This document shows positions 8,792 to 19,226 of a stretch of DNA of 64,000 nt, one piece after another. The stretch comes from Promethearchaeia archaeon. Its GTDB lineage: Archaea > Asgardarchaeota > Lokiarchaeia > Sigyniarchaeales > SOKP01. The number at the start of each line of letters is the position of its first letter. Positions within the stretch are counted from its first letter, which is position 1. Position numbers and translations under genes: made by a program. The notes under the pieces are model-generated. The model had not been told where the DNA came from. It searched no databases and was given only the letters and a program-made list of their open reading frames with translations. The stretch is taken from the NCBI GenBank assembly GCA_029856155.1, contig JAHQWL010000040.1:64001-128000 (forward strand), in the 5' to 3' direction.

Positions 8792-11296
8792 ATGAGTAAA
8801 ACCAATGTAAATTATTCTGACCAAAAAAGGGAGACAAAATTCCCTATTGCTGAATCTCATGGTCTTTCTCCTCGATCTAAATGGCTTAGAGATTATTACT
8901 TTAGGGGACTAGAGCGAGAATGGAATAATCAATTTATGCCATTTACAACTGGAACAGATTGGGATATCGTGTTTCATGAGGGAGATTGGTATATTAATCC
9001 TGAAGTATATTACTATATCCAAGTATTAGGAAAAAATGATAAAGGTGTATTTGCATCATCATATAGATCAATGGCTATACCAGTTGAATTGCCAGATAAT
9101 TTTTGGGAATTATCTCTACCAGAACGTAGAGTCACCTTTCTCGAAAAAGTTATGCTTGATTATATTCCTCACGAAATTATTTCTGAAAATGATTTAATTG
9201 CAGGTGGGAGATTTAATACTCAATTAAGCAGATGCTTTAATGAGGAAGAAGCAAAAGAATATTGGAAGAAAAATGTAAGAAATAGAGAAGCTGTTTTTAA
9301 GTACCATAAATCTGGATTTGGAAATCTAGGAGCAGTTCCAGGTCATATTATACCTGATTATGAAACTGTAGTTAAAAAAGGATTTAAATATATCTATGAA
9401 AAAGCTCGCAAAACCTATGATGAACTTACAGAAGAGGAAAAAATTGGACCAAAAGGAGGAGAACTCAGAGCAATCATGACTGCAGCTAAAATTCCAAAGA
9501 AATTAGCAAAGAAATATGCTGAAGAGAGCCGAAGATTAAAAACTGAAACTAATAATCCTAAGAAAGCTGAAGAACTTGAACAAATGGCAATGAATTTAGA
9601 AAAAGTACCATGGGAGCCTGCTGAGACTTTTTGGCAAGGAGTTCAAACAGTTTGGCTAACTCATATGTTAGTAATGGCTGAAGAATCATACCCTGGAGCA
9701 GGCCTCTCTTTTGGTAGAATTGATCAGTATCTATGGGATTTATATAAAAAAGATGTTATTAAGCAAAAAACATTCAGTAAAGAATTTGCAAAAGACATAT
9801 TAAGCAGTTTCTGGTTTCATTGTAATACTGTGTATGATGCAATGATTAGAGTTGGTAATCAGGGATTATTATCAGGATTCGGTCAAATTATAACACTTTC
9901 TGGATGTGGTTCAAATGGAGATGATTTAACAAATGAACTTACTTACACTATGCTTGAAGTCATAGATTCATGGTATCCGAGTCTTGAGCCTAAACCTAAC
10001 GTAAGAATTCATAGAAATTCTCCAGAAAGACTTTTGGATATATTAATAGATATGATTGCGAGAGCTCAAGGAGCTCAATTCATTCTGAATTTTGACGAGA
10101 GAAGTATTGCTGGAATGGTTAAAGAAGGTATACCTAAAGAAGAAGCTTGGAATTATGGAGTAGTAGGTTGCCTAGAAAATACTATGCAAGGTAATGATAG
10201 AAGCGGAACTGTAAATTGCAATCCTAATTTATCTAAATCTATTGAATTAACATTATGGAATGGTAAAAATATGCCTAGAAATGATATTGTTACTAAACCT
10301 GGCGAACAAATCGGACCAGAAACAGGAAATCCTGAAGATTTTCAATCATGGGAAGAATTTTATAACGCTTGGAAAGGACAGGTTGAATTTATTATTAGAT
10401 ATACTGTGGATATAAATAATTTATGCGAAGAACTTCGAGGTGATTTTATTCGCACTCCATACCTATCTTCGATCGTTCGAGGATGTATAGAGCAAGGTTT
10501 AGATATTATAAATGGAGGTCCTGAATTGAGATTTATTACTGTTGAAGGAGTGGGATATGCTACGACAGTTGATTCATTACTATCAATTAAGAAGCTTGTA
10601 TATGAGGATAAAAAATACACAATAGCACAAATCAAAAATTCCATTATGAATGACTTTAAAGGAAACGAGGTAATGCAAACTTACTTAATGAATAAAGCTC
10701 CTAAATATGGGAATGATGAAGATGATGTTGATGAATTTTCTAAAATGGTAATGGAAACATGGGCTGAAGAATGTTGGAAATATAAAACACCAACCAACTA
10801 TCAATATCGTCCAGGAATGTTATCATGGAACTACTGGGCTGGAGCAGACGCTAGTTATACAATAGCAACACCAAATGGACGGAATAAGGGATCATTTCTA
10901 TCAAATGCAATCTGTCCTACCAATGGAGCTGATAAAAAAGGGCCTACAGCAGTTACTAATTCTATTGGTAAAGTATTAGGAGGAAAAACTGAATCTGGAG
11001 AATACCTTAATTATTTACCCAATGGAGCAAGCCATACAATTACTTTTAATCCGTCTATAATTAAAGATCCAGAACATAAAGAGAAATTTAAAGCTTATTT
11101 ACGAGGATACATTGAAAATGGAGGGACTTCGTTACAAGTTAATATGCTTGATGCTGAAATGTTGAAGGACGCTCAAAAACATCCCGAAAATTATAAGAAT
11201 CTTTTAGTTAGAGTAACGGGTTATAATGCATATTTCACCACCATAGGTAGAGAATTACAGGATGAGATAATTGCAAGAGAATCTCATAGAATTTAG
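8792..11296 (+). CDS. Glycyl radical enzyme (PFL2/eliminase-like, substrate unknown)
   Basis: SFGRIDQYL, Cys loop GVVGCLE, PKYGND, ATPNGR, glycyl loop LLVRVTGYNAYF. Confidence 0.92.
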   Translation: MSKTNVNYSDQKRETKFPIAESHGLSPRSKWLRDYYFRGLEREWNNQFMPFTTGTDWDIVFHEGDWYINPEVYYYIQVLGKNDKGVFASSYRSMAIPVELPDNFWELSLPERRVTFLEKVMLDYIPHEIISENDLIAGGRFNTQLSRCFNEEEAKEYWKKNVRNREAVFKYHKSGFGNLGAVPGHIIPDYETVVKKGFKYIYEKARKTYDELTEEEKIGPKGGELRAIMTAAKIPKKLAKKYAEESRRLKTETNNPKKAEELEQMAMNLEKVPWEPAETFWQGVQTVWLTHMLVMAEESYPGAGLSFGRIDQYLWDLYKKDVIKQKTFSKEFAKDILSSFWFHCNTVYDAMIRVGNQGLLSGFGQIITLSGCGSNGDDLTNELTYTMLEVIDSWYPSLEPKPNVRIHRNSPERLLDILIDMIARAQGAQFILNFDERSIAGMVKEGIPKEEAWNYGVVGCLENTMQGNDRSGTVNCNPNLSKSIELTLWNGKNMPRNDIVTKPGEQIGPETGNPEDFQSWEEFYNAWKGQVEFIIRYTVDINNLCEELRGDFIRTPYLSSIVRGCIEQGLDIINGGPELRFITVEGVGYATTVDSLLSIKKLVYEDKKYTIAQIKNSIMNDFKGNEVMQTYLMNKAPKYGNDEDDVDEFSKMVMETWAEECWKYKTPTNYQYRPGMLSWNYWAGADASYTIATPNGRNKGSFLSNAICPTNGADKKGPTAVTNSIGKVLGGKTESGEYLNYLPNGASHTITFNPSIIKDPEHKEKFKAYLRGYIENGGTSLQVNMLDAEMLKDAQKHPENYKNLLVRVTGYNAYFTTIGRELQDEIIARESHRI

Positions 11297-15727: not shown

Positions 15728-16858
15728 ATGTATGATGTTGTAATTAGTGGAGCTGGTCCATCTGGTTCACATTGTGCTAGAATTATTGCTGAAGCGGGAT
15801 TTAAGGTAGCTTTATTAAAAAAAAATACATAATGGCGAAAACCTTGTGGAGGTTCAGTGTCCTCTGAAATTCTTGCACTATATCCCGAAATAGAAAACTT
15901 AAACATTGCAAAAATCACCGGCACAAAGATTTATTCTGCAAATCTTCATAGTCTCGAACAGAGGCGTACGGATAATTTATATTCTGTAATTGTTGATAGG
16001 TTAGATTTCGATGATTTAATAAGGAACATTGCTGTAGATAAGGGAGCTGAATTATTTGATAAGAATTTATCATATGATTTTGTAATAAAAGAAGGAAAAA
16101 GAATAGGAGTAAAGACAAAAACGCCAGAAGAGATTAAAGAGTATTATGGAAAAATTATTATTCTTGCTGATGGAATGAGTTCAAAATTAGCTATAAAATC
16201 AGGATTGCGTTCAAAATGGGAGCTTAAAGATATCATTGTTAGCAAATGTGCTATAATGGAAGGAGAAAATAAGTTAGATTATAATTTAGGTTATGTTTTT
16301 TTTCAAAGCTATATGGGATATGGTTGGATTTTCCCATTGGGTAAAAAAAGATTCAATATTGGTTGTGGTTCACCTGCTGAGATTGCGTTAAAAGTTAATT
16401 TAAACAAGATGTTTGGTAATTTTATTAATGATCAATACATAAAGACCCATTATCTTACTTCTGATTATAAAACTATTTGGTCAGGATCATATCCACTTGC
16501 TAGAAATGGAATTTTAGAAAAATGTTTGTTCTCTGATAATCTATTGTGTATTGGTGATGTTGCCGGCTTCGTCTCACCTATAACGGGTGAGGGAATTCAT
16601 CAATCTATGCATTCTGCAAAAGCAGCAGCTGAAGTAGCTGTGAATGCTTTGGAAAAGGAAGATTATTCTAAAGATACTCTAAAAGCATATAGAAACCATC
16701 CAGATGTTAAAAATTTAAGAAGAGTTTTTAAATCACTTTTACGTTTAAGAGATTTTTTCTTTGAAGAGAATGGAAAAAATCTAAATGAAATGCTAGAAAG
16801 AGCAGAAAATGACCCCGAATATAGAGAAAAAGCTTTGAATATATTTTTTGCAAAATAA
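15728..16858 (+). pseudogene. Geranylgeranyl reductase-family flavoprotein with in-frame TAA at 15830-15832
   Basis: ATG 15728: MYDVVISGAGPSGS...VALLKKNT*WRKPCGG continues in frame into the 15857 ORF (ADG, GYGWIFP, GDVAGFVSPITGEGI). Confidence 0.8.
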
Positions 16859-16979
16859 GAATGAAATAAAAGAGATTTCTCTTTTAAAAAAAAATAGATT
16901 TCATGGGGAAATATATTTTATAATCTCTTTATTTAATATAAATTAATATTGATTGATTTATATACAAAAGGTTTTCTTT

Positions 16980-18392
16980 TTGAGTGATTTAGAAGGTTTA
17001 ACTAGAAGGTTAATGGAAAAGGGTTTTAGAAAGGAAGAAATTATTTTACGGCTTGTTAAGGAATATATGGATTTTAAAGACATTAAACAAGAGTCCGCAA
17101 CTCTTCTTGCTGAAGCGATTTATGAAGAATGTAAAAAGAGTGATATTAGGATTGTTTCAGATCCCTTTATGAGATATTTATTAGATATTAATAAGTCAAA
17201 TGTGACCATTGGAAAACAAGGAGTGGGTTGTAGGGGGTCAGGCGACTTTTTTGTTCATAAGCTCATTGCAGAGCTATCTGAAACAGAGAAGAGAGCATAC
17301 TTATCACCTAGCTCTTTAGATGATGCTGGTGCTGTGAGAATTAGTGATATTGAAGGTTTTAAAGCAGAAGATGATTTAATCATTGTATCTAAAATGGAAG
17401 GAATTCATAGTCGCTTAAGCGACTTTCCATTCTTGTGTGGTTTTCACGTAATTTCATGCAATACATTTGCGTGAAGCGTATCGAGAGCCGCACTACGAGA
17501 TCTCTATGTCAAAGGAGCAAAACCAATTTCCATTATGGTTGATGTTCATTTAGGAGATGATGCTGATGTTGGTAAACTCTTAGATTTTATGGCAGGAATT
17601 TCCACAATTGCAGAACTTACTGATGTACCTATAACGGCAGGCTCAACTTTAAGAATTGGAGGTGATATGGTTATTGGAAATAGACTTGTAGGAGGGATTG
17701 GGGCCGTTGGTATTGCTGAGGGTAAACTATTTGCTCGAAGGAATATAAAAAAAGGAGATAAAATACTTATGACTGAAGGTGCAGGAGGTGGAACAATCAC
17801 AACCACTGCAATTTATTCAGGAAACCATCATGTTGTTAAAGAAACGTTGAATATTAAATTTCTTGAAGCTTGCAAAGTAATCTTAAATTCAAATTATATA
17901 AATGAAATTCATGCAATGTGCGATGTGACGAACGGAGGGCTCAGAGGAGATCTCTATGAGATTAATTATGAAGCTAAATGTGGAGTAACAATTTATGAAC
18001 AAGAAGTAAGAAAACTTGTAAATCCGATTGTTCTTGAATTACTTGAAAAAGTATCGGTTGATTATTTAGGGGTTTCTTTAGACGCACTGCTAATTTATTG
18101 TTCTGAGGATGTTTCCAATAAAATAATTTCAGATTTAAGAGAAAATGGTATAAAATGTTCTGAAATTGGGTATGTTGATGATTCGAACCAAATAAAAATG
18201 ATTTTTGCGAAAGATAAACAAGAAAATATTTTGCCTCGATTTCGGGAATCAGCTTACACCAAAATAAAACAAGAAATAGGAGAACAAGCACCAGAATCTA
18301 AAGAAGAAATGGAAAATGATATACAAGTGACTGCTTCAAATGCGATAAAGAAACGAAATAAGATAATAAAATATATAAAAAGTCAAAACTAA
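16980..18392 (+). CDS. AIR synthase-related (PurM/HypE/SelD-fold) protein, two exons 16980-17451 and 17482-18392, 460 aa after splicing
   Basis: GVGCRGSGDFFVH, LDDAG, EGIHSRLSDFPFLCGFHV|TRAALRDL, DVHLGDDADVGK, GSTLRIGGDMVIG, DVTNGGLRGD; both halves in the same frame and joined by removing the BHB intron. Confidence 0.9.
17452..17481 (+). other. 30-nt bulge-helix-bulge intron in mRNA
   Basis: Outer helix 17435-17445/17483-17493, central ACGU/GCGU, bulges AAU and AUC, inner 9-bp stem with 5-nt loop; contains the in-frame UGA. Confidence 0.9.
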
Positions 18393-18398
18393 AGCTAA

Positions 18399-19226
18399 TT
18401 ATAAATCTAAATTGAGAACTTGATTCATAGAACCCGAGCGAAATCCTGCTAGATCTACCGTAACATAAATAAATCCAAGATTTCTTAACTTTTCTCTAAT
18501 TTTTTTCATATTTTGTTCAGTTAAGACTTTTGGGAGATCGCTTTGTAGAAATTCAATTCTCCCTAAATTGTTCTCATGTAATCTGACTCTCAACTGCTTT
18601 AAGTTGAATTTATTTTTTAGGAACCTCTCCGCTTCTCTTATCATCATTAATTTTTCTTCATTTATAATTTGCCCATATGGAATTCGAGAAGAGAAGCATG
18701 CCATTGATGGTTTAGATTGAACATATAAATTATAAAATCTGCAAATCTCTCTTATCTCATTCTTATTAATTTTGAAATCAATATATGGTGTAGATATTTT
18801 TAGCTCTTCTAGGGCTTGCATTCCAGGCCTATAATCCGAAAGATCATCAATGTTTGAACCATCTAATATTATATCAAAATGTTTTTTGTTTTTTATTTCA
18901 AGGATATCATTATATAATACAGTTTTACAAATATAGCATCTATTTGAAGGATTACATTGGAATTCTTCGTTTTTTAAGGGATCTCGTTCAAGGATCATAT
19001 GATTTATATCATAATTATTAGCAAATTGTATGGCCTCATTGATTTCTTCTTCAGGATAAAGAACTGAACTTTCAGTTATAAGAAGAGTGTCTCTAGCATA
19101 TTTTTTTGAGAGAAAGGCTAAAAGGGAACTATCAACACCCCCAGAAAAAGCTACTATTACCTTTTTTCCTTCCAAAAAAGATATGATATTCTTTAACTTT
19201 TTTTCTATTATATTAGGCAAATCCAT
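18399..19226 (-). CDS. larE: LarE-like ATP-dependent sulfur transferase (PP-loop)
   Basis: VAFSGGVDSS, NPSNRCYICK, DGSNIDDLSDYRPG, KPSMACFSSRIPYG, QLRVR, DLAGFRSGSMN. Confidence 0.88.
   Translation of the reverse strand: MDLPNIIEKKLKNIISFLEGKKVIVAFSGGVDSSLLAFLSKKYARDTLLITESSVLYPEEEINEAIQFANNYDINHMILERDPLKNEEFQCNPSNRCYICKTVLYNDILEIKNKKHFDIILDGSNIDDLSDYRPGMQALEELKISTPYIDFKINKNEIREICRFYNLYVQSKPSMACFSSRIPYGQIINEEKLMMIREAERFLKNKFNLKQLRVRLHENNLGRIEFLQSDLPKVLTEQNMKKIREKLRNLGFIYVTVDLAGFRSGSMNQVLNLDL

What the first reader, a model, noticed from the sequence alone, without database searches (positions are those of the whole stretch)
17431..17500. Canonical bulge-helix-bulge intron inside a protein-coding gene (AIR-synthase-related protein)
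Seen in the sequence: the two ORF-track pieces (16953-17474 and 17535-18392) are in one frame, separated by a TGA. The junction folds as a textbook BHB: 11-bp exon-exon helix GUGUGGUUUUC (17435-45) / GAGAGCCGCAC (17483-93); 4-bp central helix ACGU (17446-49) / GCGU (17476-79); 3-nt bulges AAU (17450-52) and AUC (17480-82); 9-bp intron stem UUCAUGCAA/UUGCGUGAA with a UACAU loop. Established: the archaeal tRNA splicing endonuclease EndA cuts after the second nucleotide of each bulge and RtcB ligates. Applying that rule removes 17452-17481 (30 nt, including the stop) and gives TTT CAC GTA A|CG AGA GCC = GFHVTRAALRD. The junction creates a Thr codon absent from the DNA, and GFHVTRA is the motif I recall for this archaeal family. 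Inference: this is a spliced mRNA (460 aa spliced, 164 aa unspliced). Archaeal mRNA introns are known mainly from crenarchaeal cbf5.
Basis: partly seen in the sequence, partly recalled or inferred. Interest (0 to 1): 0.96.

Follow-up and report, generated by a model that had tools for sequence, protein, structure and literature searches.

The report
tRNA-type mini-intron in Asgard enzyme gene
A conserved enzyme gene of an Asgard (Loki-type) archaeon is interrupted by a 30-base insert shaped exactly like a tRNA intron, so the protein can almost certainly be made only after the messenger RNA is cut and rejoined; in print this is known for one archaeal protein gene (cbf5).

Summary
Window 17435-17493 folds into a textbook helix-bulge-helix-bulge-helix. 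Cutting after the second base of each bulge removes 17452-17481 and rebuilds GFHV-T-RAALRD, the sequence of 26 uninterrupted orthologs.

- **Recurrence:** the same insert sits at the same codon in 15 distinct sequences, including 10 of 54 species genomes of the genus.
- **Structure is kept:** 97.5% of pair cells are paired, and four pairs show compensatory changes.
- **It blocks translation:** every copy has an in-frame stop. One copy is 29 nt long, so it also shifts the frame.
- **The gene is under selection:** both exons give dN/dS of about 0.07-0.16 at dS 0.3-2.5, and it is the only ortholog in the genome.
- **The machinery is present:** two EndA paralogs and RtcB are encoded.

No RNA data set holds this organism, so splicing is inferred, not seen.

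New here: exon 1 plus the intron has a different history from exon 2, the downstream gene and RtcB. This suggests the intron-bearing 5' segment moved between species by recombination.

The scan has reported the same kind of intron before in other Asgard genomes, some with RNA support. In the papers I could search, only cbf5 and one Haloferax 5' UTR are reported.

The parts
16980..17451 (+). Exon 1 of the AIR-synthase-related gene: 157 codons plus the first base (A) of the Thr codon. The start TTG at 16980 is placed by alignment to the M/L-SDLEGLTR start of homologs; an upstream TTG at 16953 is also open.
   Evidence: dN/dS 0.07-0.16 among intron-bearing genes
17452..17481 (+). 30-nt BHB mini-intron: the third base of the 5' bulge, a 9-bp hairpin with a 5-nt loop, the 3' strand of the central helix, and the first two bases of the 3' bulge.
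   Evidence: Absent from 26 orthologs. Present at the same codon in 15 distinct sequences. Its removal gives open frames of 464-497 codons in every copy that lies wholly within its contig; four copies cut by a contig end stay open to the end.
17482..18392 (+). Exon 2: the last two bases (CG) of the Thr codon, 302 codons and stop TAA at 18390-92. Carries the rest of the AIRS N domain (from profile position 43) and the AIRS_C domain.
17435..17445 (+). 5' strand of the 11-bp exon-exon (outer) helix.
   Evidence: 98.8% of cells paired in 15 sequences
17483..17493 (+). 3' strand of the outer helix.
   Evidence: G-C to A-U double change in two sequences
17446..17449 (+). 5' strand (ACGU) of the 4-bp central helix.
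   Evidence: C-G to U-A double change in L001
17476..17479 (+). 3' strand (GCGU) of the central helix.
17450..17452 (+). 5' bulge AAU; predicted cut between 17451 and 17452.
   Evidence: Column 21 (exonic A) is invariant, while column 22 (first intron base) shows all four bases.
17480..17482 (+). 3' bulge AUC; predicted cut between 17481 and 17482.
17453..17475 (+). Intron hairpin: 9-bp stem and 5-nt loop. The loop varies freely and the stem varies with pairing kept.
17472..17474 (+). In-frame TGA inside the 3' strand of the intron stem; it ends translation of unspliced RNA.
   Evidence: present at the same place in all 14 30-nt versions

Best explanation
Window 17452-17481 is a genuine bulge-helix-bulge (tRNA-type) intron in the mRNA of the genome's only ortholog of a conserved Asgard AIR-synthase-related (PurM-superfamily) protein.

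The proposed mechanism:
1. The transcript folds so that exon bases 17435-45 and 17483-93 pair.
2. That fold presents a 4-bp helix flanked by two 3-nt bulges.
3. The splicing endonuclease EndA (two paralogs here, probably an alpha-beta heterotetramer) cuts after the second base of each bulge.
4. RtcB joins the exons, creating the Thr codon A|CG and a 460-aa reading frame. The 30-nt intron is released, probably as a circle.

Unspliced RNA gives only a 164-aa fragment that ends at the intron's UGA.

Shown: the structure, its exact register with the gap in orthologs, its conservation with covariation, purifying selection on both exons, and the presence of the enzymes. Inferred: that cutting and joining happen in the cell.

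The intron lies at the 3' edge of a segment of about 0.6-0.7 kb (5' end of the gene) that appears to have been exchanged between species of the genus by homologous recombination.
For: 1. **Canonical fold.** The structure is the minimum-energy fold, z = -5.8. RNAalifold predicts the same consensus on 15 sequences.
2. **Register with orthologs.** 26 orthologs in related genomes read GTN ACN CGN GCN (VTRA) with no insert. Only the canonical cut (second | third bulge base) gives Thr; a shift of -1 gives Ser and +1 gives Met. None of the 26 intronless orthologs has Ser or Met there; two have Ala.
3. **Conservation and covariation.** There are 15 distinct intron-bearing sequences, and 10 of 54 species genomes of the genus carry the insert. 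97.5% of pair cells are paired, against 31-56% when partners are slid by 1-3 columns. Four pairs show compensatory changes, the loop is free, and the first intron base is free while the last exon base is invariant.
4. **Every copy blocks translation.** All have an in-frame stop. The G024 copy is 29 nt, so only excision restores the frame. Every copy that lies wholly within its contig opens to 464-497 codons once spliced, and the four cut by a contig end stay open to the end.
5. **Selection on the gene.** dN/dS is 0.08-0.15 overall and 0.07-0.16 in each exon, at dS 0.3-2.5. G000 and G024 have no second copy.
6. **Extra constraint on the exon flanks.** Synonymous codon diversity in the flanks is 0.17 against 0.41 gene-wide in intron-bearers. 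In intronless orthologs it is 0.45 against 0.45.
7. **Enzymes present.** Two EndA paralogs (198 and 202 aa) and RtcB are encoded. Half of the detectable tRNA genes carry introns.
8. **Linkage.** An independent Logan contig bridges exon 1, intron and exon 2 without a difference.
Against: - No RNA evidence: no junction read and no circular intron.
- All genomes are metagenome-assembled.
- Two copies (G052, G061) have an A.G mismatch in the central helix and weaker stems. Those would need a relaxed-specificity enzyme, or may be decaying.
- The shape alone is not rare in the genome at a looser threshold.
Confidence: 0.87

Rival explanations
1. Translational bypassing (a ribosome hop, as in phage T4 gene 60). 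The peptidyl-tRNA-Val leaves GUA at 17448-50, skips the hairpin and the stop, and lands on GUA at 17478-80. The product would read GFHV-S-RAALRD.
For: Matching GUA codons lie 30 nt apart, with a hairpin and a stop between them. The hop would also work for the 29-nt version.
Against: - In L001 the landing GUA is lost (GCAUAUCG), while the helix is kept by a compensatory C-G to U-A change.
- In G059 the take-off codon is GUU.
- The product would carry Ser, which none of the 26 intronless orthologs has at that position.
- The repeated CGUA follows from the symmetry of the BHB.
- The 11-bp exon-exon helix and its covariation have no role in hopping.
Confidence: 0.03
2. A stop-codon read-through or TGA-recoding insertion: the 30 nt are translated as 10 extra residues, with TGA read as an amino acid.
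For: Database proteins P0008 and P0011 are annotated this way, with W. The window's insert is a multiple of three.
Against: - Those proteins translate only under TGA=W.
- The G024 insert is 29 nt. L266 has an extra TAA and G058 an earlier TGA.
- The 'peptide' varies freely while RNA pairing is kept.
- The insert splits the AIRS N domain, which is continuous in the intronless homologs P0001 and P0007.
Confidence: 0.02
3. A pseudogene, or a gene split into two separately made polypeptides (164 aa, and 285 aa from ATG 17535).
For: Under table 11 two separate ORFs are called.
Against: - Both halves are under strong purifying selection across dS up to about 2.5, with no other lesion in 15 copies.
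- The 17 codons between the junction and ATG 17535 (RAALRDLYVKGAKPISI) are among the most conserved in the family.
- It is the sole ortholog in the genome.
- The break always has the same BHB shape.
Confidence: 0.04
4. EndA cuts the site but the ends are not efficiently rejoined: the BHB acts as a cleavage or decay switch for the mRNA, not as an intron.
For: EndA also processes non-intron BHB sites, for example in rRNA precursors (PMC7714728).
Against: The gene would then never yield a full-length protein, yet exon 2 stays in frame with exon 1 after exact excision in all 15 copies and is under selection. RtcB is present.
Confidence: 0.03

Closest known systems
BHB intron in the cbf5 (pseudouridine synthase) pre-mRNA of Crenarchaeota (Watanabe 2002; Yoshinari 2006; Yokobori 2009, PMC2738675)
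   Same: - A small BHB intron inside a coding sequence.
- Cut sites between the second and third bulge bases.
- Phase-1 position: between the first and second letter of a codon in a conserved motif.
- Patchy presence among related species, read as gain and loss.
- A host with a two-subunit EndA.
   Different: - A different gene (PurM-superfamily enzyme) and a different phylum (Asgard/Promethearchaeota).
- The motif here is the strict canonical hBHBh' with an 11-bp exon helix, whereas most cbf5 introns have relaxed motifs.
- cbf5 splicing is shown by cDNA; here it is not.
- Here there is evidence that the intron-bearing 5' segment crossed species boundaries.
BHB intron in the 5' UTR of Haloferax volcanii HVO_1309 (PMC7714728)
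   Same: An EndA substrate in an mRNA, released as a circle.
   Different: It lies in the untranslated leader (46 nt) and does not interrupt the reading frame. It was shown by circRNA-seq and in vitro cleavage.
Archaeal tRNA and rRNA BHB introns (EndA/RtcB pathway)
   Same: The same structural motif, the same predicted enzymes and the same size range. The host genome is rich in tRNA introns (bioRxiv 10.64898/2026.10.13.758758).
   Different: The context is an mRNA with no tRNA body, and the exon-exon helix is built from synonymous and conserved codon positions.
Unconventional HAC1/XBP1 mRNA splicing in eukaryotes (IRE1 cut, RtcB/Trl1 joining)
   Same: Protein-only cut-and-join of a small mRNA intron at stem-loops. 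The ligase is of the same family (RtcB in metazoa). Splicing is needed to make the full protein.
   Different: The endonuclease (IRE1) and its recognition motif are unrelated. HAC1/XBP1 splicing is a regulated stress switch, and no regulation is shown here.

Membership tests
Archaeal bulge-helix-bulge (EndA/RtcB-spliced) intron | Two 3-nt bulges on opposite strands separated by a 4-bp helix, flanked by helices (hBHBh') | tested here: met
   Minimum-energy fold and RNAalifold consensus
Archaeal bulge-helix-bulge (EndA/RtcB-spliced) intron | Excision at the canonical cut sites yields the mature sequence seen in uninterrupted homologs | tested here: met
   It gives GFHV-T-RAALRD, matching 26 orthologs. 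Other registers give Ser or Met.
Archaeal bulge-helix-bulge (EndA/RtcB-spliced) intron | The structure, not the sequence, is conserved among relatives (covariation) | tested here: met
   15 sequences, 97.5% of cells paired, 4 pairs with double changes, slid controls 31-56%
Archaeal bulge-helix-bulge (EndA/RtcB-spliced) intron | The host encodes the splicing endonuclease and RtcB ligase | tested here: met
   PF01974 twice (103.5 and 72.6 bits) and PF01139 (570 bits) in G000
Archaeal bulge-helix-bulge (EndA/RtcB-spliced) intron | Spliced RNA and/or circular intron observed; cleavage by EndA in vitro | not testable with these tools
   No RNA holder listed for this sequence
cbf5-type archaeal pre-mRNA intron | Lies in the cbf5 gene at the catalytic Asp codon | tested here: not met
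   The gene carries PF00586 + PF02769, not a TruB/Cbf5 domain. It works like this intron but is not homologous to it.
cbf5-type archaeal pre-mRNA intron | Host with a hetero-oligomeric (alpha-beta)2 EndA | tested here: inconclusive
   There are two separate ~200-aa paralogs. One keeps the Y..H..K pattern and the other lacks the His. The (alpha-beta)2 type is reported for Asgard in PMC5829648. The subunit assignment is by eye only.
PurM / AIR-synthase superfamily protein | AIRS N-terminal and AIRS_C domains | tested here: met
   Exon 2 holds PF02769 and PF00586 profile positions 43-97. In the intronless P0001, PF00586 runs unbroken across the junction. No NCBIfam equivalog cut-off is reached, so the exact function is unknown.
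Programmed translational bypass (T4 gene 60 type) | Matched take-off and landing codons conserved among copies | tested here: not met
   The landing GUA is absent in L001 and the take-off codon is GUU in G059
Mobile archaeal intron with homing endonuclease | An ORF for a LAGLIDADG endonuclease inside the intron | tested here: not met
   The intron is 29-30 nt. No other copy exists in the genome within 9 substitutions of 37 nt.

The most novel reading that the evidence does not exclude
This intron is a mobile genetic trait. A segment of about 0.6-0.7 kb (leader, exon 1 and intron), whose 3' end coincides with the BHB, has spread between species of a Promethearchaeota genus. The spread could be by plain homologous recombination or by a process tied to the splicing intermediate, such as a cDNA copy of '5' exon + intron'. 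It is one of many EndA-spliced mini-introns in Asgard mRNAs. The strictly kept in-frame UGA makes production of the enzyme depend on EndA/RtcB activity, which would be a gate like HAC1/XBP1 splicing.
Probability: 0.15. Interest if true: 0.9.

Novelty: new member of a known kind. Interest (0 to 1): 0.74.

Why it matters
In the papers I could search, splicing of archaeal coding sequences by the tRNA-splicing enzymes is reported only for cbf5 of Crenarchaeota.

A strict, conserved and covarying BHB intron in a different gene of an Asgard archaeon shows that this pathway acts, or at least is selected for, on ordinary mRNAs. Asgard archaea are the closest prokaryotic relatives of eukaryotes.

Practical consequences:
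- Gene callers split such genes or rescue them with a wrong genetic code, as with P0008 and P0011 under TGA=W. This distorts annotation and metabolic reconstruction of Asgard genomes.
- The presence/absence polymorphism within one genus, together with the discordant history of exon 1 + intron, gives a concrete system for asking how protein-spliced introns are gained, lost and spread.
- The very clean substrate (11+4+9 bp) is well suited to a biochemical test with recombinant Asgard EndA and RtcB.

Tried and rejected
- **RNA evidence:** no RNA holder is listed for the gene.
- **Laying DNA contigs of four studies:** only X1, probably the source sample, bridges the intron. The other three leave the place uncovered, so they say nothing.
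- **First collection scans:** A stricter filter pulled five further real intron-bearing loci out of them.
- **Genome-wide census:** I scanned for a BHB whose removal merges two ORFs of at least 60 aa. It showed no excess over control bulge geometries (79 against 67-92 hits). This intron is the only strong hit, and relaxed cases such as psmA are missed. The scan cannot count mRNA introns in this genome.
- **Structure-only counts:** no excess over controls.
- **Rfam:** no family matches.
- **Other copies of this intron in the genome:** none, so it is not a repeat family.
- **Whole-protein tree:** poorly resolved. It was replaced by separate exon trees.
- **Upstream synteny with the window's geranylgeranyl-reductase-like gene:** not found in any related locus.
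- **Read-through, recoding, hopping, pseudogene and split gene:** considered and rejected as set out under the rival explanations.

Full report
**What is in the sequence**

The window is AT-rich (about 30% G+C). Between 16953 and 18392 the + strand carries two ORFs in one frame, separated by TGA at 17472-74.

- an 11-bp helix between exon bases 17435-45 and 17483-93;
- a 4-bp helix, ACGU with GCGU;
- two 3-nt bulges on opposite strands (AAU and AUC);
- a 9-bp hairpin with a 5-nt loop.

The fold has -29.4 kcal/mol, holds 69% of the ensemble, and has z = -5.8; none of 200 shuffles folds as well. It persists in a 167-nt context.

**What the gene is**

- Exon 2 carries the second part of the AIRS N domain (profile positions 43-97) and the AIRS_C domain.
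- Homologs are 458-474-aa 'AIR synthase-related proteins' of Promethearchaeota, Hod-, Thor- and Odinarchaeota.
- In an intronless homolog the N domain runs unbroken across the junction.
- No NCBIfam equivalog cut-off is reached: ThiL, SelD, HypE and PurL all score far below threshold. The protein is a PurM-superfamily enzyme of unknown specific function.
- The organism belongs to a genus of Promethearchaeota. One intron-bearing relative is titled 'Promethearchaeota archaeon isolate H2M.194'.

**Register with homologs**

Read through with TGA=W and aligned to 14 homologs, the window has exactly 10 extra codons between GFH and VTRA/SRA.

In 26 orthologous loci of related genomes the DNA reads ...TTY CAY GTN ACN CGN GCN... 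with no insert.

The published rule places the cut between the second and third bulge bases (PMC2738675). Applied here, it removes 17452-17481 and joins GTA A|CG AGA, which reads V-T-R. Shifting both cuts by -1 or +1 would also keep the frame but give Ser or Met. None of the 26 intronless orthologs has Ser or Met there; two have Ala.

**The apparent counter-example**

Two database homologs, P0008 and P0011, seem to carry a translated 10-residue insert with W. Their contigs have TGA at that place, and the proteins translate only under TGA=W. They are further intron-bearing genes that were miscalled.

**Recurrence and covariation**

Pattern scans and a genus-wide search found the insert at the same codon in 15 distinct sequences. 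10 of 54 species-level genomes of the genus have it, with zero matches to the reversed control pattern.

On their alignment:
- 97.5% of the 360 pair cells are standard pairs, against 31-56% when the 3' partners are slid by 1-3 columns.
- Four pairs carry compensatory double changes: outer helix G-C to A-U, central helix C-G to U-A, and intron stem C-G to U-A and A-U to U-A.
- Many further changes are one-sided but keep pairing.
- The loop varies freely.
- RNAalifold predicts the same structure on its own.
- The last exon base of the 5' bulge is invariant (A), while the next base, the first of the intron, shows all four letters.

Two copies (G052, G061) have an A.G mismatch in the central helix and weaker stems.

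**The insert must come out**

- Every copy blocks translation: UGA at the same place in the 14 30-nt versions, plus an earlier TAA (L266) or TGA (G058).
- The G024 copy is 29 nt long and so shifts the frame as well.
- After excision by the BHB rule, every copy that lies wholly within its contig opens to 464-497 codons. The four cut by a contig end stay open to the end.
- Intron-bearing genes differ by dS 0.9-2.2, yet dN/dS is 0.08-0.15. The same holds for each exon alone, at 0.07-0.16.
- G000 and G024 have no second copy of the gene.
- In intron-bearing genes the codons that form the exon-exon helix have much lower synonymous diversity than the rest of the gene (0.17 against 0.41). Intronless orthologs show no such dip (0.45 against 0.45). 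The RNA helix itself is therefore under selection.

**The machinery**

G000 encodes two EndA-family proteins at separate loci, of 198 and 202 aa. One keeps the Tyr/His/Lys pattern and the other lacks the His. This fits the (alpha-beta)2 enzyme reported for Asgard archaea (PMC5829648); the assignment is my inference.

RtcB is present.

ARAGORN finds only 28 tRNA genes, 14 of them with introns. This agrees with a 2026 preprint on heavily interrupted Asgard tRNA genes.

**Rivals**

- **Read-through or recoding:** excluded by the 29-nt copy and the extra stops.
- **Pseudogene or split gene:** excluded by selection on both exons, and by the conserved 17 codons upstream of the first ATG of 'ORF 2'.
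- **Ribosome hop from GUA (17448-50) to GUA (17478-80):** formally possible in the window. However, the landing codon is lost in L001 exactly where the helix is kept by a compensatory change. The product would also carry Ser, which none of the 26 intronless orthologs has at that position.

**What is missing**

No RNA data set holds the sequence. A Logan contig from the probable source sample bridges exon 1, intron and exon 2 without a difference. Splicing in the cell is therefore inferred.

**An unexpected history**

Synonymous divergence between G000 and several intron-bearers is four to five times lower in exon 1 than in exon 2.

Sliding windows show the pattern. Eight intron-bearing genes are 83-94% identical to each other through all of exon 1, but only 62-78% identical to 18 intronless orthologs. 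This excess ends within 30-60 nt after the junction. Beyond that point, intron-bearers are no more alike than any two genes of the genus.

The DNA trees agree:

| Partition | Changes of the intron label | Test of intron-bearers as one clade |
|---|---|---|
| Exon 1 | 2 | not rejected, AU p = 0.36 |
| Exon 2 | 9 | rejected, delta lnL 432, p = 7e-51 |

Exon 2, the downstream LarE-like gene and the unlinked RtcB all name G066 (intron+) and G005 (intronless) as G000's nearest kin. Against G005, RtcB is 97% identical and exon 2 is 90%, but exon 1 is only 68%.

G024's upstream kilobase is collinear with that of intronless species.

The simplest reading is that a segment of about 0.6-0.7 kb, holding the 5' end of the gene with the intron at its 3' edge, has replaced the resident intronless segment in several species by homologous recombination. 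Chimeric metagenome assembly is a caveat. Two points argue against it: the exon-1 copies differ from one another by 6-17%, and the junction is bridged by an independent contig. Why the block ends at the intron in all of them is unexplained.

**Context and novelty**

In the library searched, papers up to 2025 cite only cbf5 for introns in archaeal coding sequences, plus a Haloferax 5' UTR intron.

Earlier notes of this scan list many similar candidates in this genome and in at least 58 other genomes, some with RNA support according to their own follow-ups. I re-examined three in G000:
- **psmA** is split at C1:~10072-10100. The canonical cut removes 29 nt and reads VFTQN|AGVRPFG.
- **uL11** lies in three frames, separated by inserts of about 36 nt.
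- A 30-nt ACGU/GCGU hairpin with two TAA sits at **C72:105996**.

This finding is thus a very clean new member of a known kind (a BHB intron in an mRNA), in a lineage and gene where it is not published. It adds evidence on how such an intron spreads.

Noticed in passing
G000 contig C1:~10072-10100 (+), outside the window: The proteasome alpha-subunit gene is split into two frames: PF00227 profile 1-98 and 95-189. The gap is CUCA/aaa/hairpin/UGAG/aua. The canonical cut removes 29 nt and reads ..VFTQN|AGVRPFG. The outer helix is only 2 bp, so this is a relaxed BHB.
   Followed up: partly
G000 contig C44:~135900-136180 (+), about 8 kb beyond the window's end: The N-terminus of ribosomal protein uL11 lies in three frames (..KALVTGGSA / ASGGPPI / GPSVGPTGINI..), separated by two AT-rich inserts of about 36 nt. 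Pfam L11_N matches only profile positions 17-58.
   Followed up: partly
G000 contig C72:105996 (+): A second 30-nt insert has the same central helix ACGU/GCGU, an 8-bp hairpin and two TAA stops. This is the Roadblock/LC7 candidate of the first-stage notes. Its intron sequence is unrelated to the one studied here.
   Followed up: partly
window 17472-17474 and alignment A3 columns 42-45: UGA is in frame at the same place in all 14 30-nt versions. At stem pairs 25-43 and 26-42 all variation is on the 5' strand (A/G, C/U), never on the UGA side. The stop may therefore be selected in its own right, to end translation of unspliced RNA.
   Followed up: partly
P0008 (L001:319-1743) and P0011 (L002:127-1503): Public protein predictions of intron-bearing copies were made under TGA=W, so they show a false 10-residue insert with Trp. 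Such entries hide mRNA introns and suggest a wrong genetic code.
   Followed up: yes
window 16980-17500 compared with 17510-18392; loci L003-L022, L280-L289: Exon 1 plus the intron and exon 2 have discordant phylogenies. The shared intron-bearing block ends within 30-60 nt after the junction in all eight closely related copies. G002 (L007) has an exon 1 of the intron-bearing class but no intron.
   Followed up: partly
whole genome G000: ARAGORN finds only 28 tRNA genes in a 97%-complete 4.1-Mb genome, 14 of them with introns. Many tRNA genes are probably too interrupted to be detected.
   Followed up: no
window 15857-16858 (+) and 18399-19226 (-): Neighbours are a geranylgeranyl-reductase-like FAD protein upstream and a PP-loop ATPase of LarE type downstream, both named by eye from the sequence. 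The upstream neighbour was not found next to the gene in any relative. The downstream one is syntenic in most relatives.
   Followed up: partly
L282 (G052) and L286 (G061): Two intron copies carry a U-to-G change that puts an A.G mismatch at the outermost pair of the central helix, and their intron stems are weaker. They are either relaxed substrates or decaying introns. The G061 gene still opens to 497 codons once spliced, and the G052 copy is open up to the end of its contig.
   Followed up: no
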